IMG/VR virus record: IMGVR_UViG_2547132278_000009
Origin: a virus
Lineage: Duplodnaviria > Heunggongvirae > Uroviricota > Caudoviricetes
Direction: 5' to 3' (one strand)
Length of the DNA stretch: 40,040 nucleotides
Shown here: piece after piece, positions 10,483-37,806 of the stretch
Numbering within the stretch: position 1 is the first letter of the stretch
Layout of the letters: every line of letters begins with the position of its first letter
Program-made: the position numbers and the translations under genes
The notes under the pieces: model-generated
The model's database searches: none
Told to the model about the DNA's origin: nothing
What the model saw: the letters and a program-made list of their open reading frames with translations, nothing else

Positions 10483-10556
10483 TGATGGAAAACTCCTTTT
10501 TCCGTTAATTCTACGCATTCATTGCGCTAATAGTAAGTATATACTTACCAATTGAG

Positions 10557-15945: not shown

Positions 15946-17520
15946 TCACTCGTTCTCTTGAGTAGATGAGTCCCCATTCCCTCGGGGTTGATCTTGCCCG
16001 CTTTCTTGGGCTGCACCACGATCATAAGTAAGTGATGACTTATTTTCAAGGGTATTTAGATCATTTTTTGGAGGAAAATTCAAGAGATCTTTATCAAATT
16101 CCTCTTTCATCGCCTCAGTAATGTTCGGGAAAATCTTCTCAATAAGCATTTCCATCTGGTGACGACGTACAGAGTCCGGTGCCTGAAGTAATGACAGTTT
16201 CTCGGCAACAGAAAATTCATCAGTAAGGCCACGAATATCGAAACTTTCTGGATACGCAATTAAAGAGTGGTCTTCGTCCAGATCTACCCCCATCCATTTC
16301 GCAACCAGTAGCATGATTTGGCGTTCAGCCCTTTCCAGACGCTCTGCTTTTGTGACAAGCAAGCTATTTACACGCTGGAAGTCATACATTTTTGCGGCAC
16401 CAGATGAGTTATCGATTCCCTGTGCGTTGTCCTGCTTCGTTCGCTCACCAGCTACACCAACTGAATGGTAGATTTCGTTAATCACCGTCTTAATCGTAGT
16501 GATGATCATCTGAGCTTGTTTCGGGTCTGGTGACAGATAAAACGGCTGGTTTCCACCTTCAGAATCGTAGGTGAAGACTCGCTTTGTGCCCATTTCAAGC
16601 ACTTTAGTGTGGTTTTCATCACCAGGTAAAAGCGACTGTACTGGTATAGCCAACTGGCTAAATGTCTGATCCTGAATAATGGCATCAAGGTTTGACAGAT
16701 AGTTTGCAACCGCACGATCAAGATAAGCGATATCATCGATCAACGATGGGCTGAAATACGGTGATTCACTTTCTCCAATACAATCAACAGGAAACACAGG
16801 AACTACGCCGAGATTATGCTCACCGCTATCCTCTAAAATAACTTTTGCCTGACGGCGACCTGCTCCACCAGCGCCCTTCTTCACTTCCTCACGGAACAGA
16901 TACCACTCGTTTTGTGTCCACAGACGATAACGTTGGTATTCCTGACCTGTAGAAGTAAAAGGATCTGCGTCATCGCGAGCGACTTCCACAATTAACGCCC
17001 ATAACATATTCCCGTCGTCGTCCCATGCCACATCCAGCATTTGCTGAGGTGAAATCCAGTAGGCGTAGGCGCGAGCATCTTTCTTTTTCTCGTCAGCTAC
17101 TGACTCAACATCACCACTCATCGTGCTATCGACAACAACCCATATGCGACCGTAAATAGACGACTGCAAATCAATAGCGGCCATAAATGAGTCAATAGAG
17201 GCATTCTGGCGAGTCGCACGTTTCCAGAAATTGCGGATCTGCTCTGGTGCCTCTTCGATATTTCTATGAATGTCTTCTTTAAAGAGATATTTGTTGATGA
17301 GGTTTACCACCTCACGAGTGTGGTTGAAGCGATAAGCACGTTCAACTCGCTCCTTAAACTCCTGATCTCCCTCTTTAAAGTAACGAAAGATATTGTCTGT
17401 AAACCAACCACGCCCGCCAGCGTAAGTGCTGGCGAGGAAGTCCCAATGTTCTTTTTTCTTTTCGTATTCCGGGTGGCGTCGCGCCACCAGATCCTTAATT
17501 TGTTTGTCGTTCAATTCCAT
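15946..17520 (-). CDS. Portal protein (candidate)
   Basis: 524-aa ORF immediately downstream of terminase large subunit; size and position typical. Confidence 0.6.
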   Translation of the reverse strand: MELNDKQIKDLVARRHPEYEKKKEHWDFLASTYAGGRGWFTDNIFRYFKEGDQEFKERVERAYRFNHTREVVNLINKYLFKEDIHRNIEEAPEQIRNFWKRATRQNASIDSFMAAIDLQSSIYGRIWVVVDSTMSGDVESVADEKKKDARAYAYWISPQQMLDVAWDDDGNMLWALIVEVARDDADPFTSTGQEYQRYRLWTQNEWYLFREEVKKGAGGAGRRQAKVILEDSGEHNLGVVPVFPVDCIGESESPYFSPSLIDDIAYLDRAVANYLSNLDAIIQDQTFSQLAIPVQSLLPGDENHTKVLEMGTKRVFTYDSEGGNQPFYLSPDPKQAQMIITTIKTVINEIYHSVGVAGERTKQDNAQGIDNSSGAAKMYDFQRVNSLLVTKAERLERAERQIMLLVAKWMGVDLDEDHSLIAYPESFDIRGLTDEFSVAEKLSLLQAPDSVRRHQMEMLIEKIFPNITEAMKEEFDKDLLNFPPKNDLNTLENKSSLTYDRGAAQESGQDQPRGNGDSSTQENE

Positions 17521-19517: not shown

Positions 19518-19630
19518 GGGTGTTTAATTAGATCTGGCATGTCTTACGAAGCCTGCTTCCGTATATATTTAATAAGTTACTTATTATTTATATATATAGA
19601 TGCAGGTCTTTAAATAAGCTCCCAGACCGA

Positions 19631-19897
19631 TTACATCACCAGTAACTTCGCTTTGGCTCGACCTAAAGTGGTTAACCCAAGAGTTCGGCGGTGATAGCGA
19701 TTGTCACTGCGTTGGCGCGTATGCCCTTTCTCCACCAGCCCCTTTTTTATCAGAGCGCGAATTGAGAACTGGATACTTTGCTTGGTTGTCTTGTACGGCA
19801 AAACTTCAAGCAATTCGTCCAGATCAAGTAGATGACCTCGCTCATAACCGAGATTGAGCGTTTTGATTATGTCCTTTTGTTTGTCGGTTAACGTCAT
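19631..19897 (-). CDS. Small basic protein, possibly winged-helix DNA binding
   Basis: 88-aa ORF 9 bp downstream of the GNAT-like gene; basic C-terminus; no firm motif. Confidence 0.35.
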   Translation of the reverse strand: MTLTDKQKDIIKTLNLGYERGHLLDLDELLEVLPYKTTKQSIQFSIRALIKKGLVEKGHTRQRSDNRYHRRTLGLTTLGRAKAKLLVM

Positions 19898-19906
19898 GGC
19901 AAATCC

Positions 19907-20797
19907 TTATGCCGGTAAAGCAATTTCTAACGGTTTATCCAAAGGTTGTTTGTCGAATGCCAGCAGTGGCAGCGTGTCAGGCAGTCGACGGCCAAAGTCA
20001 GGGTTTCGGTACACACCATACAACGGAGACGTAAAGCTCAGGTTGTGAATGTCCTTGAGCAGCTTCACAATGCTGGCCTCGTCCACCAGACTGTCGGCAA
20101 TGTCCTGAATCGTCGTGCCACGATTCCGCCCAGCTTTTGCCAGAGAACTGTTCTTGTGGTAGTCCGCCACCAAATCGCGCAGCGCACGGCGACGACGAGA
20201 CTCGCTCATAGCGAACAACTCTTTGACGATCGCCTCGTTATCACCCGGGTCGGAGCGGAAATGGCGCTGGAACACACGCAGTGCACTTTCATAGCTCTTC
20301 GGTCGCTCAGGGCGGATGAACTTAAACCCTGCTTTCATGGCGAAGGGATTGTATTTGCTCATCGAGGACTGGATCTCAATGATTGGCCGGTCATGCATCC
20401 TGCTAACCAGGTTAATCATTCGATAAGAGACGCCTACGCCACGATACTGAGTATCCACAACTGAGCGACTGATCACCGCAAAGTTGTTATTCACGTACCG
20501 ACCCCAGTACTGGTTAGCCACGGTGGTATTAGTGGTTGGTTTCAACTTAGGAAACATGCGGTGGCGAGGTGCCAACAGTAGTTTCGGGTAAGCCATAACC
20601 ACGACGCCCACCAGACGGTCATCAAGTTCGCAGCGATAGTAAGTTGGCGCGAAAGGTTTGCCGTCTGTTTTGTAGTGAAGCGACTTAAGAGCGTGCCAGT
20701 CCTCTACAGTTCCCTTTGTAACAGTCATTCGCTCCAGAAAGTCCAGATGACGCGGAAACTCTTCAGGGCGGTAGCGTTTAATGATGATGTCCGTCAT
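19907..20797 (-). CDS. GNAT-like acyltransferase-fold protein with extra C-terminal domain (hypothetical)
   Basis: 296 aa; YRGVGVSYRMINLV resembles GNAT motif A (R/Q-x-x-G-x-G/A); start overlaps the ATPase stop by 4 nt. Confidence 0.4.
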   Translation of the reverse strand: MTDIIIKRYRPEEFPRHLDFLERMTVTKGTVEDWHALKSLHYKTDGKPFAPTYYRCELDDRLVGVVVMAYPKLLLAPRHRMFPKLKPTTNTTVANQYWGRYVNNNFAVISRSVVDTQYRGVGVSYRMINLVSRMHDRPIIEIQSSMSKYNPFAMKAGFKFIRPERPKSYESALRVFQRHFRSDPGDNEAIVKELFAMSESRRRRALRDLVADYHKNSSLAKAGRNRGTTIQDIADSLVDEASIVKLLKDIHNLSFTSPLYGVYRNPDFGRRLPDTLPLLAFDKQPLDKPLEIALPA

Positions 20798-21459
20798 GAA
20801 TGGACCTCATCATGACTACCATTGTGATATTCCACCTTCACGCGTTCTTTGTAGTGCTTGGTGATCTGCATATCCGGGCGCAGCGCGTTCTTCAGGTCTT
20901 CGTGAGTCGTCGCCACCATTACCGTCGCACCAACCTTTCGAGCGGCACGCTGGAGGTTAGACGCCACAACCTGAGCGGTTACACGGTCGAGAACAGCGCC
21001 GAACTCGTCAGCAGCCCATACTTTAGCGCCTGACTCAATCAGTTTGGCAATCTTGAGACGATATTTCTGGCCGTCTGACATTTCAGAAGGCTTGCGAACA
21101 AACAGATATGCATCGTTCAGACCAGCCATAGATAACAACCCAAGCGCATCACTGGTCGTTTTGCCCAACTGATCGATGACGTTAACCTCATTATCGAAGG
21201 TAAAATCATCGATGGAGGCTACAGAAAGCCCTTCATCCTTCATCTGGCGTTGCAACTCGCGCAGCACAACGGATTTGCCGGAACCGGATTGGCCGGTGAT
21301 GTACACCACATCGCCCTGCTTCACTTCCAGCTCCAGATTGTCGTAAAGCGTCCACTCTTTTTCGTCCAGGCCAAGCCCGAACGACTCAGCGATTTCCAAC
21401 GTGCGCGTGGTTTTATTTACGCGTGTCTGAAACGATACGTTGATGATGTATTTGCTCAT
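20794..21459 (-). CDS. Minimal ABC-type ATPase (stand-alone nucleotide-binding domain)
   Basis: 221 aa; Walker A GQSGSGKS, signature-like SDGQKYRL, Walker B VWAADEFGAVLD, H-loop ATTHEDL; overlaps both neighbours by 4 nt. Confidence 0.7.
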   Translation of the reverse strand: MSKYIINVSFQTRVNKTTRTLEIAESFGLGLDEKEWTLYDNLELEVKQGDVVYITGQSGSGKSVVLRELQRQMKDEGLSVASIDDFTFDNEVNVIDQLGKTTSDALGLLSMAGLNDAYLFVRKPSEMSDGQKYRLKIAKLIESGAKVWAADEFGAVLDRVTAQVVASNLQRAARKVGATVMVATTHEDLKNALRPDMQITKHYKERVKVEYHNGSHDEVHS

Positions 21460-22124
21460 GCAGCCATCTCCCCGGAAGAGATCTTCTCCGCATATGCCAC
21501 AAATGCGTCTACCCCGCTTTCTCCCGTCATTTCTTCCATGTGGGCAAGCAAATCACCAACAACAATGGCAGAGCCAGCAGGGAGCGTTTTAAAGCCCAAT
21601 ACGTCGACAACACGTACTTCTTCCGCTGCAACTTCACGACTGATCTCGGTGTGTTCATCCTTCTGTCGTTTAGTTTCTTCGCCAAGATCGATAACTAGCG
21701 AATCGGTGTCCATTTCTTCTGTCATACTGCCAACGAGAACATTCAACTCACGCTCTTCAAAGCCGAAAACCTCGATATCGTCCAGAACAAGCGACTCAAG
21801 CTCTTTCTGTAGCTTAATTGCATCGTAATCAATGCTGGCAAGTCGGTTATCTTCAAGGCGCTTCGCACGAACCTCGTCATCACTGAGATCATCGCGAACA
21901 ATAACCGGTACGCGCTCAAGTCCAGCAAAAATTGCAGCCTCACGGCGGCCGTGGCCAGTAATAATTACGTCGTTCTTATCGACCGTAATTGGCTGGTCAA
22001 ATCCGCGCTTTTTAATGGCTGCGGCCAGATCTCGGATCTGCTGTTCATCATGCTTTTTGGCATTCATCTCATAGGGAATAAGATCTGCCGGGTCGCGATA
22101 TACGATTTCAAACTTTTTGGTCAT
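21456..22124 (-). CDS. ParB/Srx-like N-terminal domain protein (second of two)
   Basis: ITGHGRREAAIFAG matches the ParB arginine motif (GxxRxxA); probable start MTKKF overlapping the upstream stop as TAATG. Confidence 0.65.
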   Translation of the reverse strand: MTKKFEIVYRDPADLIPYEMNAKKHDEQQIRDLAAAIKKRGFDQPITVDKNDVIITGHGRREAAIFAGLERVPVIVRDDLSDDEVRAKRLEDNRLASIDYDAIKLQKELESLVLDDIEVFGFEERELNVLVGSMTEEMDTDSLVIDLGEETKRQKDEHTEISREVAAEEVRVVDVLGFKTLPAGSAIVVGDLLAHMEEMTGESGVDAFVAYAEKISSGEMAA

Positions 22125-22822
22125 TACATACGCTCCTTGTAGTAGTCGACCAGCCACACCAGAGCCTCACCAGCGTTCTCCATTTCATTACCGGTGTTAA
22201 TAGCCTGCTCTTTGATGATGTTTTTTATGGTTTCTGCAACACGATCTGACGCATCGAAAGTTACTTTGAAGCGCATGGTCTGATGTTCCGCACCCACACG
22301 TTCGGTTTTCTCTCGTTTGTCGGTATCGACAGGCTCATCACTACCACGAGACAACGCCTCCAGTGCTTCAAGGTCGATTGCCGCCTCTTTTGCTAAAACC
22401 ATCGAGATTTCGTCGTCATACGGGGCGATTTCAGACAGTTGATAGTCAAGTTCTGACTGAATTTCTTCAATGAAGCGTTGCAATGCGATTTGGTCGTCTT
22501 CACCGTATCGCTCGTTGTCCACCAGTGACATCTGTTTAGCTACGACATCGCTAATTTTGCCCACAGAAAGCACCGGAACCGTTGAAATTCCTTGCTCAAT
22601 AGCAGCACGCCAGCGATGTTCGCCGCCGAGGATTTCAAAAAATCCATCTTCAAGTTCACGAGCCAAAATTGGCTTAAAAAAGCCCAATTTTTCGATAGAA
22701 CCTTTCAGTTTTTCAAAATTCTGCGCACCAACCGAATTGGTGTTCCAGGTATTCGGGCGAAGGTTGGCAACATCAACCTGCAAAATCGTGATTTTTACAT
22801 CCATTTTATTGCTACAATCCAC
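22124..22822 (-). CDS. ParB/Srx-like N-terminal domain protein (first of two)
   Basis: ILGGEHRWRAAIEQG matches the ParB arginine motif; first gene of the operon, divergent from the helicase. Confidence 0.7.
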   Translation of the reverse strand: MDCSNKMDVKITILQVDVANLRPNTWNTNSVGAQNFEKLKGSIEKLGFFKPILARELEDGFFEILGGEHRWRAAIEQGISTVPVLSVGKISDVVAKQMSLVDNERYGEDDQIALQRFIEEIQSELDYQLSEIAPYDDEISMVLAKEAAIDLEALEALSRGSDEPVDTDKREKTERVGAEHQTMRFKVTFDASDRVAETIKNIIKEQAINTGNEMENAGEALVWLVDYYKERM

Positions 22823-22840
22823 TAAGTAATCACTTACTTA
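22823..22840. promoter_or_regulatory. Inverted repeat TAAGTAA-TCAC-TTACTTA in the divergent promoter region between the ParB operon and the helicase
   Basis: Read directly; followed by TATTATAAT (-10-like); member of a recurring TAAGTA/TACTTA palindrome family. Confidence 0.4.
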
Positions 22841-22886
22841 TTATAATAGCCAAATAACATACAAAAGGCACTAAGGAAAGAGGTTT

Positions 22887-24446
22887 ATGACTGTTCGGAT
22901 TGTATCTAACGCAGTTAATGCGCTTATTTCTGGCGCAGATGACAAGGTAAAGCAACTGGTGCAACAGATGTTGAGCTACGAAGTCGAGACTGGCGACTGG
23001 AAGGGCACAAGCACGATGTTCAACTGGAGTAAAAACTCGTTCCCTGCTGGCTTTGCCAAGCCTGTAGCGGCGAACTTGAACAAGGCGGGCATCAAATGTG
23101 TTCATATCCGCAAAGACAAAGCCCCGGCGCTTGGAAAGCCAAATCCGGCGGTTAACCCATTCCCATACAATCCTGATTATGCATATCAGGATCAGGCTGT
23201 GGAAACACTAGTTCGCGAGGGAATGATGATTGCCCAGATCGCTACTGGTGGTGGGAAATCTAACGTTGCCTGCAAAGCAGCTGCACGTATCGGTCGAATG
23301 ACATTATTTTTAACAACCCGCTCTGTTCTGATGTTTCAGATGGCCGAAAACTTCCAGAGATCCATCGACTACCGCGCCAAAAATGGCGAACCGTGGTTAA
23401 AAGACCAAAAGGTTGGAGTCATTGGCTCGGGTGAGTTCCAGGTATCGCGACATATCAACGTCGCTACAGTTCAAACTCTTGCAAGTTTCCTCGAAGAACC
23501 ACCACGCGATGCAACACCAGATAAGAAAAGCTACCACCTCAAACGTCGGGAGTTGGTGAAACGCTTCCTTTCAAGTGTCTCTCTTCTTATTCTGGAAGAG
23601 GCGCATGAGTCTTCAGGCTCTAATTTCTATGACATTGCCAGATTATGTGCGAACGCAGACTATCGCCTGGCGCTTACGGCAACGCCGTTCATGAAGGATT
23701 CTACGGAAGCCAACATGCGCCTGATGGCGGTGGCCGGGCGAATTGAAATTAAAGTCACAGAAAAGTACCTGATTGATCGAGGCATTCTGGCAAAGCCGTA
23801 CTTCCTTTATCATAAAGTTGCCTACAAACCAGACGAGGCCAGAATCAAGGCAGAGCTTGCCAACAAACACCTCAATTTTAGAGTAGGTATGAGCACTGCC
23901 TACCAAAAGGCTTATCAGTTGGGGATCGTGTATAATTTGGGACGTAACGAGGCCATTGTGCGCGAGGCATTGCTTTATAAGCAACATTCACTCAACTGCA
24001 TGACTCTGGTTCGTCTTAAACGCCACGGGCAAATCCTGATGGAGATGATGAAGGAGTCAGGTCTTAAAGTTGATTTCATCTATGGGGAATCTAACCAGAC
24101 GACAAGGCAAGCAAAGCTGAATAGTTTAGCGTCTGGTGAAATAGATGTTTTAATAGGCTCGACTATTCTGGATGTTGGTGTTGATGTGCCAAGCGTTGGT
24201 GCGGTCATTCTTGCTGGTGGTGGGAAAGCAGAAGTTGAAATGAGACAGCGTGTCGGTCGTGGCTTACGAGCCAAAAAAAATCAGGCAAACGTGTGTTTTA
24301 TCACTGATTTCATTGACATTAGCAACAAATACCTGTTGTCTCACTCTTATGAGCGAAAACACATCATCGACACCACACCTGGCTTTGCAGAAGGTGTATT
24401 GCCTATTGATGGAGCATTCGATTTTGGAGTTCTGAAACGAGATTAG
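22887..24446 (+). CDS. Superfamily-2 DEAD/DEAH-type helicase
   Basis: 519 aa; motif I AQIATGGGKSNVA, motif II LILEEAHE, motif III LTATP, motif VI QRVGRGLR; AAGGA RBS upstream. Confidence 0.85.
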   Translation: MTVRIVSNAVNALISGADDKVKQLVQQMLSYEVETGDWKGTSTMFNWSKNSFPAGFAKPVAANLNKAGIKCVHIRKDKAPALGKPNPAVNPFPYNPDYAYQDQAVETLVREGMMIAQIATGGGKSNVACKAAARIGRMTLFLTTRSVLMFQMAENFQRSIDYRAKNGEPWLKDQKVGVIGSGEFQVSRHINVATVQTLASFLEEPPRDATPDKKSYHLKRRELVKRFLSSVSLLILEEAHESSGSNFYDIARLCANADYRLALTATPFMKDSTEANMRLMAVAGRIEIKVTEKYLIDRGILAKPYFLYHKVAYKPDEARIKAELANKHLNFRVGMSTAYQKAYQLGIVYNLGRNEAIVREALLYKQHSLNCMTLVRLKRHGQILMEMMKESGLKVDFIYGESNQTTRQAKLNSLASGEIDVLIGSTILDVGVDVPSVGAVILAGGGKAEVEMRQRVGRGLRAKKNQANVCFITDFIDISNKYLLSHSYERKHIIDTTPGFAEGVLPIDGAFDFGVLKRD

Positions 24447-24448
24447 TT

Positions 24449-24727
24449 ATGAGTGAAAAGAAAACAACTTACTGTCAGGTAGCATTGTCTGATAAGGCCA
24501 ATGACAAACTTGGAAAGTTTCAAGTGAAACTAAAAGAAAAAAATATCAAAATGTCTAAGGCTGAAGTCATAAATACCATTCTGGAACAATTGACAATGGC
24601 CGACTTTGACAAGGTTATATCTTCTGTCGGGGCTTCCGCTAAGACTCGTGAGAAAATCATGCGTATCTATGAGAACTCTAATATGACAAAGGAAGATCTC
24701 GAAACGCTATTAAGCAGATTAAAATAA
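24449..24727 (+). CDS. Hypothetical protein (92 aa)
   Basis: ORF starting 3 nt after the helicase stop; lysine-rich; no motif recognised. Confidence 0.45.
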   Translation: MSEKKTTYCQVALSDKANDKLGKFQVKLKEKNIKMSKAEVINTILEQLTMADFDKVISSVGASAKTREKIMRIYENSNMTKEDLETLLSRLK

Positions 24728-24795
24728 TCACGCTATCAATTAGGGAGACAAAGATGAAGTCTCCCATACTGTTCACTTTCTGTTCTAAAACTATC

Positions 24796-25218
24796 ATGAA
24801 ATACTCGCTTCTCCCTCTACTAACGTTACCAGTGTTGATGCTTACCGCGTGCCAATCACGCCCAATATCAATCCATGACGCCAAACCAGCACCGCAGGCC
24901 AAAGTGTTCAAGTATCAAAGCGCAGCGCCAGCTACGTTGGTGGTAATGAGAGACACAGGTTTTGTAGGAGCTGGATGTGATGCTTCCATTTTCATCAACG
25001 GCGAAACTGTCGCAAAACTGGCTACAGGCGAAAAAGCGACTTTCCATTTAAATGCCGGAGAATTAATTGTGGGTGCATCTCTTGAAGGTGCAGGTTTATG
25101 TGCTCTAAACCCCGCTCGTCAAGAGCGAGAAACGACTCTGAAGAATGGAGACACAAAAGCGTTCAGGGTGTTCACCAGCAATTCTGGTGACATCGACATT
25201 CTGCCAACAACTCTGTGA
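24796..25218 (+). CDS. Putative lipoprotein
   Basis: ORF 24754..25218; signal peptide MKYSLLPLLTLPVLMLTAC with lipobox L-T-A-C; preceded by GGGAGA RBS. Confidence 0.55.
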   Translation: MKYSLLPLLTLPVLMLTACQSRPISIHDAKPAPQAKVFKYQSAAPATLVVMRDTGFVGAGCDASIFINGETVAKLATGEKATFHLNAGELIVGASLEGAGLCALNPARQERETTLKNGDTKAFRVFTSNSGDIDILPTTL

Positions 25219-25747
25219 TGACATGACAACCAAAGATATTACCTACGGTATCCAAGCTGAACTCTGGCCGCGAGATTACACTAACGTTGAAAAACTACTG
25301 ATGTTCTGGCGCAGAGAACAAATTCCTGTAAGGGTCACTCTCGAAGATGGCCAGGCGTTTTGCATGTACGTTTATGGCCTCATGCCATCTCGTAACAAAG
25401 TTGACCTTTGCCCAGCCCCTTTTGACAAAGAAAATCGTATAAGGCTCCCACTTGAACGCATTAGTACAATTGAATCAGGTGTGGTTGACAGTATCGCTCA
25501 CGATTTCAAAGGTCGACTAACAGTTCACCCTGATTATGTCGATAATCGGCCATCACGCCGCGATTTTTTTGCAATTTGCAACCAAGCCTACAAAGCAAAC
25601 AAATCTATAAGGGTGTACATGGCGGATGGCCGTGAAATTGAGGGGGTGTCAGCAGGCGCAGATGCTTGTCAGGTTACACTACGTGTCGAGAACGGTAGAA
25701 AAATAGTTGTTTTGTTCGATTGGGTTGAACGAATTTTGCCTTTTTGA
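25214..25747 (+). CDS. Hypothetical protein with apparent internal duplication
   Basis: ORF 25145..25747; likely start MTTKDITYG overlapping the lipoprotein stop; two similar segments (IPVRVTLEDGQAFCMYVYG / IRVYMADGREIEGVSAG). Confidence 0.45.
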   Translation, partial: CDDMTTKDITYGIQAELWPRDYTNVEKLLMFWRREQIPVRVTLEDGQAFCMYVYGLMPSRNKVDLCPAPFDKENRIRLPLERISTIESGVVDSIAHDFKGRLTVHPDYVDNRPSRRDFFAICNQAYKANKSIRVYMADGREIEGVSAGADACQVTLRVENGRKIVVLFDWVERILPF

Positions 25748-25750
25748 GTT

Positions 25751-26059
25751 ATGAAATCGATATTGTTACCACCATTATTTTTACTTTGCTCAGTTGCGGC
25801 AAATGCAATGGACTATAAGCCTGTCATTCAGTCGCTGATGAATGACGTGTGCTCAACGTCTCAGAATGTATCAGTTTGCATGTATCAATTTTCGGCAGCC
25901 GTAAAAGCAGGAAAAGCGATAGGTGAGAATGTGGAACTGTGTAAGAAAGTGGCAAATGAAGAACGGGCAATGTTGGATTGCGAATCTAGCGAGTCATCGG
26001 CACAGTTCGTTGATGCGCTATTTGACACCAATCGTAAGGCTGTAGAGTCTGTTCAATAA
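25751..26059 (+). CDS. Small secreted/periplasmic protein with signal peptide
   Basis: MKSILLPPLFLLCSVAANA signal-like N-terminus; several cysteines; followed by terminator. Confidence 0.5.
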   Translation: MKSILLPPLFLLCSVAANAMDYKPVIQSLMNDVCSTSQNVSVCMYQFSAAVKAGKAIGENVELCKKVANEERAMLDCESSESSAQFVDALFDTNRKAVESVQ

Positions 26060-26071
26060 ATCTATAAGGTT

Positions 26072-26101
26072 AATAACCGGCTAAGTCCGGTTATTATTTT
26101 T
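26072..26101 (+). terminator. Rho-independent terminator
   Basis: AACCGG-CTAAGT-CCGGTT followed by ATTATTTTT. Confidence 0.65.
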
Positions 26102-26342: not shown

Positions 26343-26993
26343 ATGGCTAACATTATCATTTCTAAAAAATCCATCATTGAAGCTGCATCTATTGTATCCG
26401 ATGAACTGCGCGAAAAAGCAGATCTGGCAACTCAAACATATAACGAACATTATAAAAATGGTACGCACACTAAAGCAGACAAAGCAAATATGCAAGCTGC
26501 GACCACTAAACTTGCTTACTTCATCAACAACGTCGTAAACGCAGTAGAAGACGAAAAATTATGCTCTGTTTTCTACTATGCGATTAAAGCAAGCAAACAA
26601 GCGCCAGAAGTATTTTTCCGTGATGCAATGACTAATAGTTATTCTCTGGAAAAACTGGTTTATCTGGTTAAATCAATTAAATCTGGTAAATGCGTTTATT
26701 CCATCGCTGATATGTCAGGATCTCGTGTATTCGCTTTAATCGATATGATTAACGACGAGATCGACACGTTCACCAATGGCGCTGTTTTCGATTTAATGAA
26801 TGAAGCTAAAAAAGCGTGTGAAATTAAATTGGACGCTGGCTATACTCAAGCCAACCAGTTGATCAATCTTTGCGAACGTCTTGGACTTGTTGAAAAAGTC
26901 AAAGGAGCTGGGAGCGCGAAAGCTGGTACTCAGCAATATCGCTTCATTAAAAATGATTTCTACAATTATTTAGCTGATGCTTTCAAAGCGTAA
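26343..26993 (+). CDS. Hypothetical protein (216 aa), first gene of AT-rich operon
   Basis: ORF with AT-rich codon usage unlike flanking phage genes; GGAAAAA RBS-like; no motif recognised. Confidence 0.6.
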   Translation: MANIIISKKSIIEAASIVSDELREKADLATQTYNEHYKNGTHTKADKANMQAATTKLAYFINNVVNAVEDEKLCSVFYYAIKASKQAPEVFFRDAMTNSYSLEKLVYLVKSIKSGKCVYSIADMSGSRVFALIDMINDEIDTFTNGAVFDLMNEAKKACEIKLDAGYTQANQLINLCERLGLVEKVKGAGSAKAGTQQYRFIKNDFYNYLADAFKA

Positions 26994-29833: not shown

Positions 29834-29959
29834 TTCACTCTCCGTAGTGTATTGGTTATTTTTCTATTCTATGATCGTAAGTATGTACTTACAATACAAA
29901 AAAGCCCCGTAAGGATGGCGGGGCTGTCGTACTGTCGACTAATTGCCACTTGCACATTA

Positions 29960-34087: not shown

Positions 34088-36121
34088 TTACTTAACCTGA
34101 TGGCCTGGTTTAGCACCGGCATCCGGGCTTAACAGGAAGATATCTTTCCCGCCGGGGCCAGCAGCCATCACCATGCCTTCAGAGATACCGAAGCGCATTT
34201 TACGCGGAGCCAGGTTAGCCACCATAATGGTGTGACGACCAATCAGTGCCTGTGGATCTGGATAAGCGGAACGGATGCCTGAGAAGACATTACGCTTTTC
34301 ACCACCGAGATCCAGCGTCAGGCGCAGCAGTTTGTCAGAACCTTCGACAAACTCCGCGTTTTCAATCAGCGCCACACGCAGGTCAACTTTGGCGAAGTCG
34401 TCAAAGGTGATGGTTTCCTGAATCGGGTCGTCAGCCAGTGGGCCAGTTACCGGTGCAGCTGTGGCTTTCACTTCTTCTTTGGATGCTTCCACCAGTGCTT
34501 CCACCTGTTTCATATCGATACGGTTATACAGTGCCTTGAACGGATTCACTTTATGGCCCAGCAGCGGTTGCTGGATACCATCCCAGGTCAGTTCTGTATT
34601 CAGGAATGCTTCTGCACGTTCAGTCAGTTTCGGCAGTACCGGTTTCAGGTACGTCATCAGCACGCGGAACAGGTTAATGCCCATAGAGCAAATCGCCTGC
34701 AGATCGGCATCGCGTCCTTCCTGCTTCGCCACCACCCACGGAGCCTGTTCATCGACATAGCGGTTAGCCAGATCAGCCAGCGCCATGATTTCACGAATCG
34801 CTTTACCAAATTCGCGGCTTTCCCATGCTTCACCAATCACTTCAGCGGCATCAGTAAAGGTTTTGTACAGTTGCGGGTCAGCCAGTTCGCCTGCCAGCAC
34901 ACCGTCAAAACGCTTATTGATAAAGCCCGCGTTACGGGACGCCAGATTCACCACTTTGTTCACGATATCGGCATTCACGCGCTGAACGAAATCCTCCAGG
35001 TTGAGATCGATATCATCAATGCGCGAAGAGAGTTTCGCAGTGTAGTAGTAACGCAGGCTGTCAGCGTCAAAATGATTCAGCCAGGTGCTGGCTTTAATAA
35101 AGGTGCCGCGAGACTTGGACATCTTCGCACCGTTCACCGTCACATAGCCATGAACAAACAGGTTGGTCGGCTTGCGGAAGTTGCTGCCTTCCAGCATGGC
35201 AGGCCAGAACAGGCTGTGGAAGTAAACGATATCTTTACCGATGAAGTGGTACAGCTCGGCGGTGGAGTCTTTCTTCCAGTATTCGTCGAAGCTGGTAGTG
35301 TCGCCGCGTTTGTCGCACAGATTCTTGAAGGAACCCATGTAGCCAATCGGTGCGTCCAGCCAGACGTAGAAATATTTGCCCGGTGCGTTCGGAATTTCAA
35401 AACCGAAGTACGGCGCATCGCGGGAGATATCCCACTGTTGCAGGCCAGATTCAAACCACTCCTGCATTTTGTTTGCCACCTGCTCCTGCAACGCACCGCT
35501 GCGGGTCCATGCCTGCAACATTTCGCTGAAAGAGGGCAGATCAAAGAAGAAGTGTTCGGAATCACGCATTACCGGCGTAGCACCAGAAACTACCGATTTC
35601 GGCTCGATCAGTTCAGTCGGGCTGTAAGTCGCGCCGCAGACTTCACAGTTATCGCCGTATTGATCTGGCGCTTTACATTTAGGACAGGTGCCTTTTACAA
35701 AACGGTCCGGCAGGAACATGCCTTTTTCCGGGTCGTACAACTGAGAGATAGTGCGGTTTTTAATAAAACCGTTCTCTTTCAGGCGAGTATAGATAAGCTC
35801 AGACAACTGACGGTTCTCTTCGCTGTGCGTCGAGTGATAGTTGTCATAGCTGATGTTAAAGCCTGCGAAATCAGTCTGATGTTCCTGACTCATTTCGCCA
35901 ATCATCTGCTCCGGTGTGATACCAAGCTGCTGTGCTTTCAGCATGATCGGCGTACCGTGGGCATCGTCGGCACAGATGAAATTAACCTCGTGGCCGCGCA
36001 TTCGCTGGTAACGAACCCAGACATCAGCCTGGATGTGCTCCAGCATATGGCCGAGGTGGATTGAGCCGTTAGCGTACGGCAGCGCGCACGTCACCAGAAT
36101 TTTCTTCGCGACTTGGGTCAT
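34088..36121 (-). CDS. metG: Methionyl-tRNA synthetase
   Basis: Near-identity to E. coli MetG as I recall it (start [36 protein letters not shown] motif present); ORF-track N-terminal extension discarded. Confidence 0.97.
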
Positions 36122-36278
36122 AGTAGGCATTACTTCTTTGTAGTGAAAAGGGGCTTGATAGTAACAAAATGGCCTTATGTCTGCCATGTGATAACAGCAT
36201 TTCTCATAAATGATTAAATGTCGTAGCTGGAGTACACTACAAGGCGACAATTGCGCAAATTAAAATAAAGGAGACGGG

Positions 36279-37379
36279 ATGAGCGAGTCCAAATCGCCGG
36301 ATGCCCTGAGAGCAATGGTAGCCGGTACGCTGGCTAATTTTCAGCACCCAACCCTGAAACACAACCTGACTACGCTTAAAGCGTTACACCATGTTGCGTT
36401 GATGGATGACACACTGCATGTCGAACTAATCATGCCTTTCGTGTGGAATAAGCCTTTTGAAGACCTGAAAGAGCAATGTAGTGGTGATCTGCTCCGTATC
36501 ACTGGCGCAAAGGCTATTGACTGGAAGCTGTCGTACAACATTGCCACGCTTAAGCGTGTCAAAAACCAACCAGGCATTAATGGCGTTAAGAACATTATCG
36601 CCGTCAGCTCAGGCAAGGGCGGCGTGGGTAAATCCTCCACGGCGGTAAACCTGGCACTGGCGTTGGCTGCTGAAGGTGCGAAAGTTGGTATTTTGGATGC
36701 CGATATCTATGGTCCATCAATTCCAACCATGCTGGGCGCGGAAAACCAACGTCCAACCTCACCTGACGGTACTCACATGGCACCTATCATGTCTCATGGC
36801 CTGGCAACCAACTCTATTGGTTATCTGGTCACCGACGACAATGCAATGGTGTGGCGTGGACCGATGGCCAGCAAGGCGCTGATGCAGATGTTGCAGGAAA
36901 CTCTATGGCCTGATCTGGACTATCTTGTTCTCGATATGCCGCCGGGCACTGGTGATATTCAGTTGACGCTGGCGCAGAACATTCCTGTAACTGGTGCTGT
37001 TGTGGTAACTACGCCGCAAGACATCGCGCTGATCGATGCGAAGAAAGGCATTGTGATGTTCGAAAAAGTCGAAGTGCCGGTACTGGGTATCGTCGAAAAC
37101 ATGAGTGTGCATATTTGCAGTAACTGCGGTCATCACGAGCCAATTTTCGGCACCGGTGGCGCAGAGAAACTGGCCGAGAAATACAACACGCAGTTGTTAG
37201 GCCAAATGCCACTTCATATCTCACTTCGTGAAGATCTGGATAACGGAACACCAACCGTTATTAGTCGTCCAGATAGCGAATTTACGGCTATTTATCGTGA
37301 CCTCGCAGATCGCGTTGCTGCCCAAATGTATTGGCAAGGTGAAGTAATACCTGGCGAAATCGCATTCCGCGCAGTGTGA
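36279..37379 (+). CDS. mrp: Mrp/ApbC iron-sulfur cluster carrier ATPase
   Basis: Near-identity to E. coli Mrp as I recall it (P-loop SGKGGVGKSS, CSNCGHHE motif); divergent from metG. Confidence 0.95.
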   Translation: MSESKSPDALRAMVAGTLANFQHPTLKHNLTTLKALHHVALMDDTLHVELIMPFVWNKPFEDLKEQCSGDLLRITGAKAIDWKLSYNIATLKRVKNQPGINGVKNIIAVSSGKGGVGKSSTAVNLALALAAEGAKVGILDADIYGPSIPTMLGAENQRPTSPDGTHMAPIMSHGLATNSIGYLVTDDNAMVWRGPMASKALMQMLQETLWPDLDYLVLDMPPGTGDIQLTLAQNIPVTGAVVVTTPQDIALIDAKKGIVMFEKVEVPVLGIVENMSVHICSNCGHHEPIFGTGGAEKLAEKYNTQLLGQMPLHISLREDLDNGTPTVISRPDSEFTAIYRDLADRVAAQMYWQGEVIPGEIAFRAV

Positions 37380-37416: not shown

Positions 37417-37806
37417 CTACATCACGGGACAATCATCAAACTCGCCACTTCTTGCGTCGTTGATAATGTGAGTGATCACACCAAACACGGCATTGCTGCC
37501 CGTGCATCCATCGTCATCCTTTGGCAATGCTTCCTTCTTACCGGTTCTTAAATCCTCCAGATGCTGACGTGGATACTTCCGGTATCTTTTTACGCGATAT
37601 TCCCCATCCAGAGCGCATACAAGCAGAGAACCATCAACCGGGGTAAGTGAGGAATCGACCACCAGCAATGCACCCTGTAATATTCCCTCACGATGATGAC
37701 TATCAGCTGCCCTCATGAAGTAGGTCGCTGAAGGATGTCTAATTATCTGCTGATCAAGAGAAATACGGCTCTCAGCATAATCCGCCGCAGGAGAAGGGAA
37801 GCCCAT
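37417..37806 (-). CDS. UmuD-like S24 peptidase-family protein, without an adjacent umuC
   Basis: 129 aa; GFPSPAADY..., HPSATYF and GVITH match E. coli UmuD; Ser and Lys of the S24 dyad appear present (DSH..., VKR). Confidence 0.8.
   Translation of the reverse strand: MGFPSPAADYAESRISLDQQIIRHPSATYFMRAADSHHREGILQGALLVVDSSLTPVDGSLLVCALDGEYRVKRYRKYPRQHLEDLRTGKKEALPKDDDGCTGSNAVFGVITHIINDARSGEFDDCPVM

What the first reader, a model, noticed from the sequence alone, without database searches (positions are those of the whole stretch)
22823..26059. Divergent SF2 helicase with four small downstream genes (lipoprotein, secreted protein, two unknowns)
A 519-aa DEAD/DEAH-type helicase is transcribed divergently from the ParB operon from a shared about 65-bp control region containing a TAAGTAA-TCAC-TTACTTA palindrome. 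It is followed without gaps by a 92-aa protein, a lipoprotein (lipobox LTAC), a protein with internal duplication and a signal-peptide protein, then a terminator. The helicase could be the replication helicase of the element, or the nucleic-acid-sensing component of a system together with the envelope proteins.
Basis: partly seen in the sequence, partly recalled or inferred. Interest (0 to 1): 0.5.

Follow-up and report, generated by a model that had tools for sequence, protein, structure and literature searches.

The report
Phage-plasmid helicase operon with cargo genes
This is a routine, already-sequenced stretch of an SSU5/pHCM2-type phage-plasmid of E. coli: a T4 UvsW-like DNA-remodelling helicase and two other core genes, with swappable envelope-protein cargo genes between and after them, not a new sensing or defence system.

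Summary
The sequence features are real and at the stated coordinates. The window is an SSU5/pHCM2-type phage-plasmid, 100% identical here to E. coli plasmid pHH107-1.

- **Helicase (519 aa):** an intact SF2 enzyme. With a family profile its best solved relative is T4 UvsW. It is not the replicative helicase, because the same plasmid encodes a DnaB-like helicase, DnaE and a ligase.
- **Core genes:** the helicase, the 92-aa protein coupled to it and the "internally duplicated" protein occur in about 820-830 enterobacterial plasmids.
- **Cargo genes:** the lipoprotein (420 plasmids) and the secreted protein (258) are optional. They sit in or next to a hypervariable slot filled mainly with other exported proteins.
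- **The duplicated protein:** a full-length FljA-family member (Pfam PF03614, 34% identical to Salmonella FljA). Its model is two tandem Hfq-like Sm domains.
- **Divergent layout:** the ParB operon facing the helicase is conserved out to Acinetobacter and Aeromonas phage-plasmids.
- **Palindrome:** one of at least four TAAGT-N4-ACTTA sites in the window.
- **Defence:** no defence-system signature was found.

Verdict: an ordinary, known element. The one intriguing point is that an FljA-type RNA-binding protein is a core gene even where the hosts are Klebsiella and Yersinia pestis, which I take from general knowledge to be non-flagellated.

The parts
22823..22840 (.). Operator-like palindrome TAAGTAATCACTTACTTA. 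Its conserved core is TAAGT-N4-ACTTA at 22823-22836. It lies between the divergent ParB and helicase genes.
   Evidence: Exact match. The half-sites are conserved in relatives, for example TAAGTACTTACTTA in the pMT, Klebsiella and Kluyvera elements. It is one of a dispersed family of sites.
22842..22847 (+). Perfect TATAAT -10 hexamer for the rightward (helicase) transcript. No good -35 is present, and the palindrome occupies the -35/spacer position.
   Evidence: Read directly from the sequence. TATAAT is kept in 7 of the 9 aligned relatives. The consensus scan did not call a promoter here, so this is an inference.
22887..24446 (+). UvsW/D10-like SF2 DNA helicase, 519 aa. Motif I is GGGKS at residue 121, motif II is EEAH at 237, motif III is TAT at 264 and motif VI is QRVGRGLR at 454.
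   Evidence: Pfam ResIII, DEAD and Helicase_C. phrog_16 DNA helicase, 1e-94. A family profile hits T4 UvsW (2oca) best, at 7e-19, collinear over residues 26-496. Motifs. dN/dS 0.024. Found in 1031 plasmids.
24449..24727 (+). 92-aa core partner protein (phrog_1466). It starts 2 nt after the helicase stop codon. It evolves fast, and its fold and function are unknown.
   Evidence: 823 plasmids, all with at least 80% coverage. Present in 81 of 83 loci. dN/dS 0.074. Identity falls to 52-63% where the helicase stays at 91-93%. The AF2 model is poor, pLDDT 51.
24754..25218 (+). Cargo lipoprotein (phrog_890, with a weak DUF2846 hit). Lipobox LTAC.
   Evidence: Present in only 420 plasmids and 38 of 83 loci. 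In Klebsiella elements a related lipoprotein sits in the opposite orientation.
25223..25747 (+). FljA-family protein, 174 aa. The predicted fold is two tandem Hfq-like Sm domains (residues about 20-85 and 112-173). It is a core gene of the enterobacterial SSU5 supergroup.
25751..26059 (+). Cargo protein with a signal peptide and four mature-part Cys (phrog_9536); putative periplasmic protein.
   Evidence: Present in 258 plasmids and 20 of 83 loci. It has the highest dN/dS of the set, 0.32.
26071..26101 (+). Intrinsic terminator: 10-bp stem, 6-nt loop, T-run.
   Evidence: -12.6 kcal/mol, z = -4.1.
19907..22822 (-). Divergent operon: ParB-like 22124-22822, ParB-like 21456-22157, ABC-type ATPase 20794-21459 and phrog_886 protein 19907-20797. 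It runs on towards the terminase genes.
   Evidence: Co-conserved with the helicase: each of the four genes is present in 80-84 of 85 evaluable loci, and the layout holds out to Acinetobacter and Aeromonas elements.
10534..10547 (.). Second copy of the TAAGT-N4-ACTTA palindrome (TAAGTATATACTTA), intergenic between tail genes.
   Evidence: The same site is present in pHH107-1, and its intergenic position follows from the annotation.
16029..16042 (.). Third copy (TAAGTGATGACTTA), inside the 3' end of the portal gene.
   Evidence: A site at the equivalent position (TAAGTACTGACTTA) is present in pHH107-1 and in the Kluyvera, Y. pestis and L009 loci.
29878..29891 (.). Fourth copy (TAAGTATGTACTTA), intergenic.
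   Evidence: which also find it in Cyrano and pHH107-1.
19573..19583 (.). Related site with a 1-nt spacer (TAAGT-T-ACTTA), 138 nt upstream of the putative small-terminase gene.
   Evidence: It is conserved at this position in SSU5, pMT, Klebsiella and Kluyvera elements.

Best explanation
The region is the start of a rightward transcription unit of an SSU5/pHCM2-type phage-plasmid. It mixes core genes with cargo and is not one dedicated system.

**Promoter and operator.** A promoter with a perfect TATAAT box, overlapped by a TAAGT-N4-ACTTA operator-like palindrome, faces the ParB-ParB-ABC ATPase operon.

**Helicase (inferred function).** The promoter drives a UvsW/D10-type SF2 helicase. By analogy with T4 UvsW and T5 D10, this enzyme would remodel branched DNA: branch migration, fork regression and R-loop or D-loop processing. 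That would support recombination-dependent or stalled-fork replication of the element. Replicative unwinding is left to the plasmid's own DnaB-like helicase.

**92-aa protein.** It is translationally coupled to the helicase and conserved wherever the enterobacterial helicase is. It is probably the helicase's partner or a small regulator, but its function is unknown.

**Cargo slot.** Downstream lies a hypervariable slot that different lineages fill mostly with lipoproteins and signal-peptide proteins. The lipoprotein here is one such filling, and the optional secreted protein follows the next core gene. Both are most likely moron-type envelope modifiers, for example for superinfection exclusion. 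That role is inferred and was not tested.

**FljA-family protein.** The next core gene encodes a protein built of two Hfq-like Sm domains. It most likely binds RNA and represses translation of specific mRNAs, as Salmonella FljA does with fliC mRNA. Its target here is unknown.

**Shown:** gene identities, folds, conservation patterns and synteny. **Inferred:** all biochemical activities, the promoter and operator roles, and the RNA targets.
For: **Element identity.**
- 100% identical to E. coli plasmid pHH107-1.
- Matches occur in 248 of 5426 complete E. coli genomes, always on plasmids.
- 82-98% DNA identity to phages CMS-2020a, PhiR41_1, Cyrano and SSU5.

**Helicase.**
- SF2 domains and intact motifs.
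- With a family profile, T4 UvsW is the best solved match at 7e-19, collinear from the N-terminal domain to the C-terminus. XPB is next.
- XPB and UvsW are also the closest characterised homologues reported for T5 D10, a demonstrated branch-migration enzyme (PMC5180179).
- UvsW roles are summarised in PMC5180179 and PMC3778716.
- A DnaB-like helicase, DnaE, a ligase and RepB are on the same plasmid.
- Cyrano encodes a DnaB_C-domain helicase next to an annotated primase.

**Core versus cargo.**
- Plasmid counts: helicase 1031 (823 at 60% identity or more), 92-aa 823, FljA-like 830, lipoprotein 420, secreted protein 258.
- In 83 loci: 81, 81, 38 and 20 carry the 92-aa, FljA-like, lipoprotein and secreted-protein genes.
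- The gap between the 92-aa and FljA-like genes ranges from 50 to 2900 nt, in at least 12 architectures.
- The slot contents are mostly lipobox or signal-peptide proteins.

**FljA-family protein.**
- Pfam PF03614, 282 bits, and 34% identity to named Salmonella FljA.
- Model pLDDT 81 with two helix-plus-five-strand units.

**Operator.** At least four TAAGT-N4-ACTTA sites in 40 kb against about 0.6 expected for all spacings. They are mostly intergenic and conserved in relatives.

**Selection.** Purifying selection on all genes.
Against: - No experiment exists for any of these five proteins in the literature I could search.
- The UvsW assignment rests on a profile-to-sequence match of 71 bits. 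The N-terminal-domain part of that match is weak on its own (11 bits).
- Motif II is EEAH rather than DExH. It is invariant across the family.
- The five genes are packed like an operon in this element, so co-expression of cargo and core genes is likely here.
- The tight conservation of helicase, 92-aa, FljA-like and p216 genes in that order, including in a divergent Klebsiella lineage, could mean they work together more closely than 'neighbouring core genes'.
- The Sm-fold assignment comes from a predicted model, not a solved structure.
Confidence: 0.7

Rival explanations
1. The helicase, the 92-aa protein and the FljA-family protein, perhaps with the facing ParB/ABC operon, form one functional module. 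It might be a nucleic-acid-level control circuit for the switch between plasmid maintenance and lytic growth. In that circuit the tandem-Sm protein would regulate phage-plasmid mRNAs and the helicase would act on RNA-DNA hybrids.
For: - The gene order helicase, 92-aa, (slot), FljA-like, p216 holds in 79-81 of 83 loci. It also holds in a divergent Klebsiella lineage where the FljA-like protein is only 36% identical.
- The FljA-like gene is a core gene in plasmids from hosts I take from general knowledge to lack flagella: Klebsiella (341 plasmids) and Yersinia (62 plasmids; the listed records are Y. pestis). A flagellin target cannot explain its retention there.
- It is under purifying selection, dN/dS 0.11.
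- ParB-helicase divergence is conserved to Acinetobacter and Aeromonas.
- UvsW is known to unwind R-loops (general knowledge; see also PMC5909445).
Against: - Synteny of core genes in a phage genome does not show functional coupling.
- In many relatives, genes on the opposite strand separate the 92-aa and FljA-like genes, so those two are not always co-transcribed.
- Acinetobacter and Aeromonas elements keep the helicase and ParB operon but show no FljA-like gene.
Confidence: 0.2
2. The FljA-family gene is a lysogenic-conversion gene. It shuts off translation of the host flagellin (fliC) mRNA, making lysogens non-motile or less visible to immunity or to phages that use flagella. The neighbouring envelope proteins are further conversion or exclusion factors.
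For: - It is a full-length member of the FljA family.
- The N-terminal DI(T/S)YG..E.WPRDY and PSRRD(F/Y)F motifs are shared with Salmonella FljA.
- FljA proteins carried on plasmids do repress fliC translation; FljA-z66 on pBSSB1 is an example (PMC2652032).
- Many hosts of these elements (E. coli, Salmonella, Enterobacter, Citrobacter, Cronobacter) are motile, by general knowledge.
- The adjacent slot is filled with exported proteins typical of morons.
Against: - Only 34% identical to canonical FljA.
- No flagellin or invertase gene is linked.
- About half of the carrying plasmids (403 of 830) are in Klebsiella or Yersinia. By general knowledge these hosts lack flagella, yet the gene is intact there: 821 of 830 hits cover at least 80% of the query.
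- No report of altered motility in carriers turned up in the searches.
Confidence: 0.25
3. The helicase is the nucleic-acid-sensing or motor component of an anti-phage defence (or anti-defence) system whose effectors are the envelope proteins.
For: - The helicase gives hits to PADLOC PbeA models (83 bits) and to Dnd restriction and type IV restriction helicase domains.
- The five genes are packed without gaps and end in a terminator.
Against: - Those hits cover only the generic SF2 core and lie far below the curated family cut-offs (62 bits against 600 for TIGR04095).
- None of the four small proteins matches any PADLOC model.
- The supposed effectors are absent from 54% and 76% of related loci, while the helicase is constant.
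- The helicase has very low dN/dS (0.024) and sits with replication and packaging neighbours, as a core phage gene would.
Confidence: 0.04
4. The helicase is the replicative helicase of the element.
For: - It is a conserved helicase on a self-replicating plasmid.
- It is annotated only as 'DEAD/DEAH box helicase'.
Against: - The same plasmid encodes a DnaB-like helicase, DnaE, a ligase, a 5'-3' exonuclease and a RepB initiator.
- Cyrano annotates a DnaB_C helicase next to a primase.
- SF2 UvsW/XPB-type enzymes are not ring-shaped replicative helicases (established knowledge; PMC5180179).
Confidence: 0.04

Closest known systems
T4 UvsW and T5 D10 (phage SF2 branch-migration / fork-remodelling helicases)
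   Same: - Similar size: 519 aa against the 510-residue UvsW chain.
- SF2 motifs I, II, III and VI are present.
- Collinear profile match to UvsW (2oca) from residue 26 to 496, including the N-terminal WDGR...FP.G motif region.
- XPB is the next-best relative, as reported for D10 (PMC5180179).
- A small ORF immediately follows the helicase gene. T4 likewise has uvsW.1 after uvsW (recalled from memory; the Kerr et al. 2007 title is cited in PMC5180179).
   Different: - Sequence similarity is remote.
- Motif II is EEAH.
- It sits in a temperate phage-plasmid, opposite a ParB operon.
- No biochemistry exists.
- The 92-aa protein shows no detectable similarity to anything solved, including UvsW.1.
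Salmonella FljA (phase-1 flagellin repressor, Pfam PF03614)
   Same: - Full-length family match at 282 bits.
- 34% identity across the whole length.
- Shared N-terminal and mid-protein motifs.
- Similar size, 174 against 179 aa.
   Different: - Not linked to a flagellin gene or a Hin/Pin invertase.
- It is a core gene of a phage-plasmid family.
- Retained in plasmids of Klebsiella and Yersinia, hosts that by general knowledge lack flagella.
- Its target RNA is unknown.
Hfq / Sm-like RNA-binding proteins
   Different: - Two Sm domains in one chain rather than a single-domain hexamer.
- Only 13-21% identity.
- Oligomeric state and RNA-binding faces are unknown.
SSU5 / pHCM2 / pMT1 supergroup of phage-plasmids (Pfeifer et al. 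2021, PMC7969092)
   Same: The window is a member. It has the same structural, packaging, ParB, helicase and small-gene order as SSU5, Y. pestis pMT and Klebsiella pKPN-04f.
   Different: Nothing essential. This lineage carries the lipoprotein plus secreted-protein version of the cargo genes, and a captured metG-apbC pair.
Moron / superinfection-exclusion lipoproteins of temperate phages (e.g. Cor, Llp, Bor)
   Same: These are small lipobox or signal-peptide proteins in a variable slot of a temperate element, and they are swapped between close relatives. pHH107-1 also carries an annotated cor gene elsewhere.
   Different: There is no sequence similarity to any characterised exclusion protein, only a weak DUF2846 hit. 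Function was not tested.

Membership tests
UvsW/D10-type SF2 helicases | SF2 helicase motifs I (Walker A), II (DExH), III and VI all intact | tested here: met
   GGGKS at residue 121, EEAH at 237, TAT at 264 and QRVGRGLR at 454. All are invariant across the E. coli, Yersinia, Klebsiella, Acinetobacter and Aeromonas homologues. Motif II has E in place of the first D.
UvsW/D10-type SF2 helicases | Two RecA-like domains collinear with UvsW, with UvsW as the closest solved relative | tested here: met
   A profile of six homologues hits 2oca_A best (7e-19, 71 bits), with query 231-496 aligned to UvsW 220-469. XPBII is second at 9e-16.
UvsW/D10-type SF2 helicases | UvsW-type N-terminal domain | tested here: inconclusive
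   The same search aligns query 26-206 to UvsW 26-217 and shares the motif sfe.dG...WDGR...y...lP.G. On its own this stretch scores only 11 bits (i-Evalue 1.1). No structure model of the helicase was made.
UvsW/D10-type SF2 helicases | ATP-dependent branch migration, fork regression or R-loop unwinding | not testable with these tools
   This needs biochemistry.
FljA (PF03614, repressor of phase-1 flagellin) | Full-length match to the family model above the curated threshold | tested here: met
   282.4 bits against a cut-off of 24, covering profile positions 1-170 of 170. 34% identity, E 4e-36, to a protein that NCBI names 'phase 1 flagellin gene repressor FljA' of Salmonella.
FljA (PF03614, repressor of phase-1 flagellin) | Operon with a phase-2 flagellin gene under an invertible promoter (fljBA-hin, or pinR) | tested here: not met
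   No flagellin or invertase gene lies in the window region or in any related locus examined.
FljA (PF03614, repressor of phase-1 flagellin) | Binds the fliC mRNA leader and blocks its translation | not testable with these tools
The gene's presence in Klebsiella and Yersinia plasmids, hosts taken from general knowledge to lack flagella, argues that this cannot be its only role.
Sm/Hfq fold | N-terminal helix followed by a five-stranded, strongly bent antiparallel sheet | tested here: met
Known anti-phage defence systems (PADLOC-DB) | Helicase plus partner proteins all matching the models of one system | tested here: not met
   The helicase hits PbeA, mREase_IV, PsyrT and DruE models only in the SF2 core. 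The 92-aa, lipoprotein, FljA-like and secreted proteins give no hits.
Replicative (DnaB-type) helicase | DnaB_C / RecA-type hexameric helicase domain | tested here: not met
   The helicase has no DnaB_C match. A separate DnaB-like gene exists on the identical plasmid, and the Cyrano counterpart matches DnaB_C at 3.6e-13.
Bacterial lipoprotein | Signal peptide ending in a lipobox [LVI][ASTVI][GAS]C | tested here: met
   LTAC at residues 30-33, after a hydrophobic stretch. phrog_890 'lipoprotein', 1e-51. No dedicated predictor such as LipoP or SignalP was available.
Ribbon-helix-helix DNA-binding proteins (considered for the 92-aa protein) | N-terminal strand-helix-helix motif detectable by profile or structure | tested here: inconclusive
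   - Helices 15-30 and 37-47 follow an unstructured N-terminus in a poor model, pLDDT 51.
- No Pfam RHH hit even at E up to 10.
- No PDB hit apart from designed helical repeats.
SSU5/pHCM2 phage-plasmid supergroup | Nucleotide and gene-order similarity to SSU5, pHCM2 or pMT1 type elements, carried as a plasmid of about 100-115 kb | tested here: met
   - 82% DNA identity to SSU5 over 83% of an 8-kb query, and 96-98% to E. coli phages CMS-2020a, PhiR41_1 and Cyrano.
- All 305 E. coli matches are on plasmids.
- Same gene order in pMT and the Klebsiella plasmid.

The most novel reading that the evidence does not exclude
The FljA-family protein is not mainly a flagellin repressor. It would be a tandem-Sm (Hfq-like) RNA-binding regulator that belongs to the core genome of SSU5-type phage-plasmids and controls phage-plasmid, or other non-flagellar host, mRNAs.

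On this reading the Salmonella phase-variation repressor FljA is a domesticated offshoot of this phage-plasmid gene, much as the Hin invertase is related to phage invertases.

The supporting facts are these:
- The family is tiny and, where hits carry names, enterobacterial: 29 hits among 1.84 billion representative proteins.
- Most of its sequence diversity lies on phage-plasmid contigs of about 100-110 kb.
- It is kept intact in Klebsiella and Yersinia plasmids, hosts that by general knowledge lack flagella.
Probability: 0.35. Interest if true: 0.55.

Novelty: new member of a known kind. Interest (0 to 1): 0.27.

Why it matters
As a whole the finding is ordinary. It is a conserved stretch of a well-known family of phage-plasmids, and its genes are already in public annotation.

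Three points are useful to people working on these elements:
1. The helicase should be called UvsW/D10-like rather than generically 'DEAD/DEAH' or 'replicative'. That predicts roles in recombination-dependent replication. Because UvsW and D10 trigger type III-A3 retrons (PMC12746101), it also predicts possible sensitivity of these elements to such retrons.
2. The interval between the 92-aa gene and the FljA-family gene is a cargo hot spot full of envelope proteins. It is a natural place to look for exclusion or conversion functions.
3. An FljA-type protein with a double Hfq-like fold is a core gene of elements that are common in clinical Klebsiella, E. coli, Salmonella and Y. pestis. This raises a testable question about RNA-level control by phage-plasmids and about where Salmonella's flagellar phase-variation repressor came from.

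Tried and rejected
- **Defence-system reading.** PADLOC and NCBIfam scans gave only generic SF2 hits far below family cut-offs. Rejected.
- **Replicative-helicase reading.** Rejected after finding a DnaB-like helicase, DnaE and a ligase on the identical plasmid, and a DnaB_C helicase beside a primase in Cyrano.
- **92-aa protein.** Sequence searches against solved structures, with a single sequence and with a profile, found only designed helical repeats. A Pfam scan at E up to 10 found nothing meaningful. The AF2 model was too poor (pLDDT 51) to use for a fold search. The positional equivalents in Acinetobacter and Aeromonas show no detectable sequence similarity. So 'RHH regulator' and 'UvsW.1 analogue' remain guesses.
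- **Internal duplication of the FljA-like protein at sequence level.** Not significant. Only the model shows it.
- **A chromosomal E. coli FljA-like protein (P0074).** I expected it to sit in a flagellin island. It is instead inside a degenerate SSU5-like copy.
- **Rfam.** No known RNA family anywhere in the window.
- **Promoter scan.** No sigma-70 consensus call inside the divergent intergenic region. The TATAAT box was read by eye.
- **Literature.** Searches for experimental work on these genes in SSU5, pHCM2 or pMT1 found nothing.
- **Genome-contig scan with the single helicase sequence.** It returned only close relatives. The viral-contig scan kept only relatives at 70% identity or more. 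How far the ParB-helicase pairing extends beyond Acinetobacter and Aeromonas is therefore unknown.

Full report
**What is in the sequence.**
- The helicase is 22887-24446 (519 aa).
- The 92-aa ORF is 24449-24727.
- The lipoprotein is 24754-25218 (154 aa), with lipobox LTAC and Cys33.
- The next ORF is 25223-25747. It is 174 aa, not 178.
- The last ORF is 25751-26059 (102 aa). It has a hydrophobic N-terminus ending ANA.

The gaps between genes are 2, 26, 4 and 3 nt. A 10-bp-stem terminator with a T-run lies at 26071-26096. The palindrome TAAGTAA-TCAC-TTACTTA is exact at 22823-22840. The intergenic region is 64 bp if ParB starts at GTG 22822, where relatives have ATG. It is 82 bp if ParB starts at ATG 22804.

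**What the element is.**
The region is 100% identical to E. coli plasmid pHH107-1. Related sequence occurs in 248 of 5426 complete E. coli genomes, always on plasmids. It is 96-98% identical to Escherichia phages CMS-2020a, PhiR41_1 and Cyrano, and 82% identical to Salmonella phage SSU5. The rest of the window holds tail, capsid, portal and terminase genes. This is a member of the SSU5/pHCM2/pMT1 supergroup of phage-plasmids (PMC7969092). The same gene order is seen in SSU5, Y. pestis pMT and a Klebsiella plasmid.

**The helicase.**
- Pfam finds ResIII, DEAD and Helicase_C, and PHROGs finds phrog_16, 'DNA helicase'.
- Motifs I, II (EEAH), III and VI are intact. They are invariant across homologues as far as Acinetobacter and Aeromonas.
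- As a single sequence, its best solved relatives are archaeal XPB proteins, followed by T4 UvsW.
- With a profile of six homologues, T4 UvsW (2oca) becomes the best hit at 7e-19. The match is collinear from residue 26 to 496 and includes the N-terminal WDGR...FP.G region, although that part is weak on its own.
- XPB and UvsW are also the nearest characterised relatives reported for T5 D10, a demonstrated branch-migration enzyme (PMC5180179).
- UvsW promotes branch migration, fork reactivation and DNA rewinding (PMC5180179, PMC3778716).
- The identical plasmid also encodes a DnaB-like helicase, DnaE, a ligase, a 5'-3' exonuclease and a RepB initiator. In the close relative Cyrano, the DnaB_C-domain helicase sits next to an annotated primase.

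I therefore read this protein as an accessory helicase that remodels branched DNA, not as the replicative helicase. That function is inferred, not shown.

**Core versus cargo.**
tblastn against 72,556 plasmids gives these counts:

| Gene | Plasmids with a match |
|---|---|
| Helicase | 1031, of which 823 at 60% identity or more (all enterobacterial), the rest mainly Acinetobacter and Aeromonas at about 40% |
| 92-aa protein | 823 |
| FljA-family protein | 830, with nearly the same genus counts as the helicase |
| Lipoprotein | 420 |
| Secreted protein | 258 |

I also scored 83 loci that have enough downstream sequence. These came from public phages, plasmids, genomes and IMG/VR.
- The 92-aa gene and the FljA-family gene are each present in 81. 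The two exceptions are the Acinetobacter and Aeromonas elements.
- The lipoprotein is present in 38 and the secreted protein in 20.
- The distance between the 92-aa gene and the FljA-family gene varies from about 50 to 2900 nt, in at least a dozen architectures.
- What fills that interval is mostly other lipobox or signal-peptide proteins, on either strand. There are also a few cytoplasmic proteins of unknown function and one HNH protein.

All five genes are under purifying selection. Median dN/dS values are helicase 0.024, 92-aa 0.074, lipoprotein 0.109, FljA-family 0.108 and secreted protein 0.317.

**The 'internally duplicated' protein.**
- It is a full-length member of Pfam PF03614, 'repressor of phase-1 flagellin', at 282 bits.
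- It is 34% identical over its whole length to proteins that NCBI names FljA of Salmonella.
- FljA blocks translation of fliC mRNA (PMC2652032).
- An AlphaFold2 model (pLDDT 81, pTM 0.78) shows two consecutive units of one helix plus five strands.
- Pfam also gives a weak Hfq hit to residues 119-161.
- The duplication is not significant at sequence level.
- The family is very small: a profile search of 1.84 billion representative proteins found only 29 hits at E up to 1e-3. The hits that carry names are all from Enterobacterales.
- The gene has no flagellin or invertase neighbour.
- About half of the plasmids that carry it are in Klebsiella (341) or Yersinia (62; the listed records are Y. pestis). 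By general knowledge these hosts lack flagella.
- A divergent Klebsiella lineage keeps a 36%-identical copy in the same position.

I conclude that it is very probably an RNA-binding translational regulator. Its target here is open. Host fliC in motile hosts is possible but cannot be the whole story.

**The 92-aa protein.**
It starts 2 nt after the helicase stop. It is present wherever the enterobacterial helicase is. It evolves much faster than the helicase, at 52-63% identity where the helicase is 91-93%. Acinetobacter and Aeromonas elements have a small ORF in the same place with no detectable sequence similarity. No family, solved structure or confident model could be obtained. A ribbon-helix-helix-like pattern, and the positional parallel with T4 uvsW.1 (recalled from memory), are only leads.

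**The control region.**
- A perfect TATAAT lies at 22842-22847, kept in 7 of the 9 aligned relatives.
- The palindrome lies just upstream, where a -35 element and spacer would be.
- The conserved unit is TAAGT-N4-ACTTA.
- It recurs at 10534, 16029 and 29878, and with a 1-nt spacer at 19573, upstream of the putative small-terminase gene.
- About 0.6 such sites are expected for all spacings together.
- Four of the five sites are intergenic.
- The sites are found at the same places in relatives.

This looks like a dispersed operator for an unidentified regulator encoded by the element. Candidates are the ParB-like proteins (by analogy with KorB, from general knowledge), the 92-aa protein and the 88-aa protein at 19631-19897. 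None of these was tested.

**The facing operon.**
It contains ParB-like, ParB-like, ABC-type ATPase and phrog_886 genes. It faces the helicase in nearly every evaluable locus: the ParB genes in 82-84 of 85 and the ABC and phrog_886 genes in 80-81. These include the Acinetobacter and Aeromonas elements, where the helicase is only 40-42% identical. What the pairing means is unknown.

**Defence hypothesis.**
PADLOC models hit only the generic SF2 core of the helicase (best PbeA, 83 bits). They hit none of the four small proteins. NCBIfam hits are far below family thresholds. Together with the optional nature of the envelope genes, this rules out the 'sensor plus envelope effectors' idea as far as sequence analysis can.

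**Verdict.**
This is a real but ordinary feature: a new, uncharacterised member of known kinds within a known phage-plasmid family. The only point of wider interest is the double-Hfq-like FljA-family protein as a core phage-plasmid gene, which is a hypothesis generator rather than a discovery.

Noticed in passing
window 34088-36250 (-) and 36279-37379 (+); also 37417-37806 (-): The phage-plasmid carries a full-length methionyl-tRNA synthetase (NCBIfam NF001100, 1018 bits) and the iron-sulfur carrier ApbC/Mrp (760 bits) as a divergent pair. From memory, this is how metG and apbC/mrp lie on the E. coli chromosome, so it looks like a captured host fragment. Next to it is a HumD/UmuD-like gene.
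   Followed up: partly
window 10534-10547, 16029-16042, 19573-19583, 22823-22836, 29878-29891: A family of TAAGT-N(1 or 4)-ACTTA palindromes is dispersed through the structural, packaging and early regions. Four of the five are intergenic, and they are conserved at the same places in relatives. This suggests an operator set for an unidentified regulator of the element.
   Followed up: partly
window 19907-21459 (-): The ABC-type ATPase and the adjacent phrog_886 protein (annotated in phage Cyrano as 'ABC-type ATPase fused to a predicted acetyltransferase') are about 99% identical in protein sequence between E. coli, Yersinia and Salmonella elements. Their dN/dS is 0.015-0.019. They are far more conserved than any neighbour, and their function is unknown.
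   Followed up: partly
related loci, interval between the 92-aa and FljA-family genes (e.g. L015 5123-7005, L032 7836-10775, L053 7836-8857, L067 7836-9636): This interval is a cargo hot spot. Across 83 loci it has at least a dozen different fillings, dominated by lipoproteins of 139-266 aa and signal-peptide proteins of 118-198 aa, plus one HNH-domain protein.
   Followed up: partly
L007 (DALYYK010000001.1, 'Candidatus Fimivivens') and L009 (JAEWTL010000044.1, 'Bacillota bacterium' MAG): Contigs assigned to Firmicutes metagenome-assembled genomes carry this enterobacterial phage-plasmid module, with 82-93% identical helicases. They are most likely binning errors.
   Followed up: no
L014 (E. 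coli chromosome CP125919.1, 385158-397682): A degenerate SSU5-like copy sits in a 5.2-Mb E. coli chromosome record. Its FljA-like protein is 52% identical and its helicase remnant 69% identical, among many short ORFs. It is either an integrated and decaying element or an assembly artefact.
   Followed up: no
L097 (K. pneumoniae NZ_CP101792.1, 23455-33982): A divergent Klebsiella phage-plasmid lineage with a different replicon type keeps the order ParB-ParB-ABC, then the divergent helicase, a small ORF (116 aa), an FljA-like gene (36% identity) and a p216-like gene. The core order is therefore older than the SSU5_pHCM2 group.
   Followed up: partly
window 26343-26993 (+): The 216-aa protein just after the terminator (phrog_1513, unknown function) is another core gene. 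It always follows the FljA-family gene, in 79 of 83 loci.
   Followed up: no
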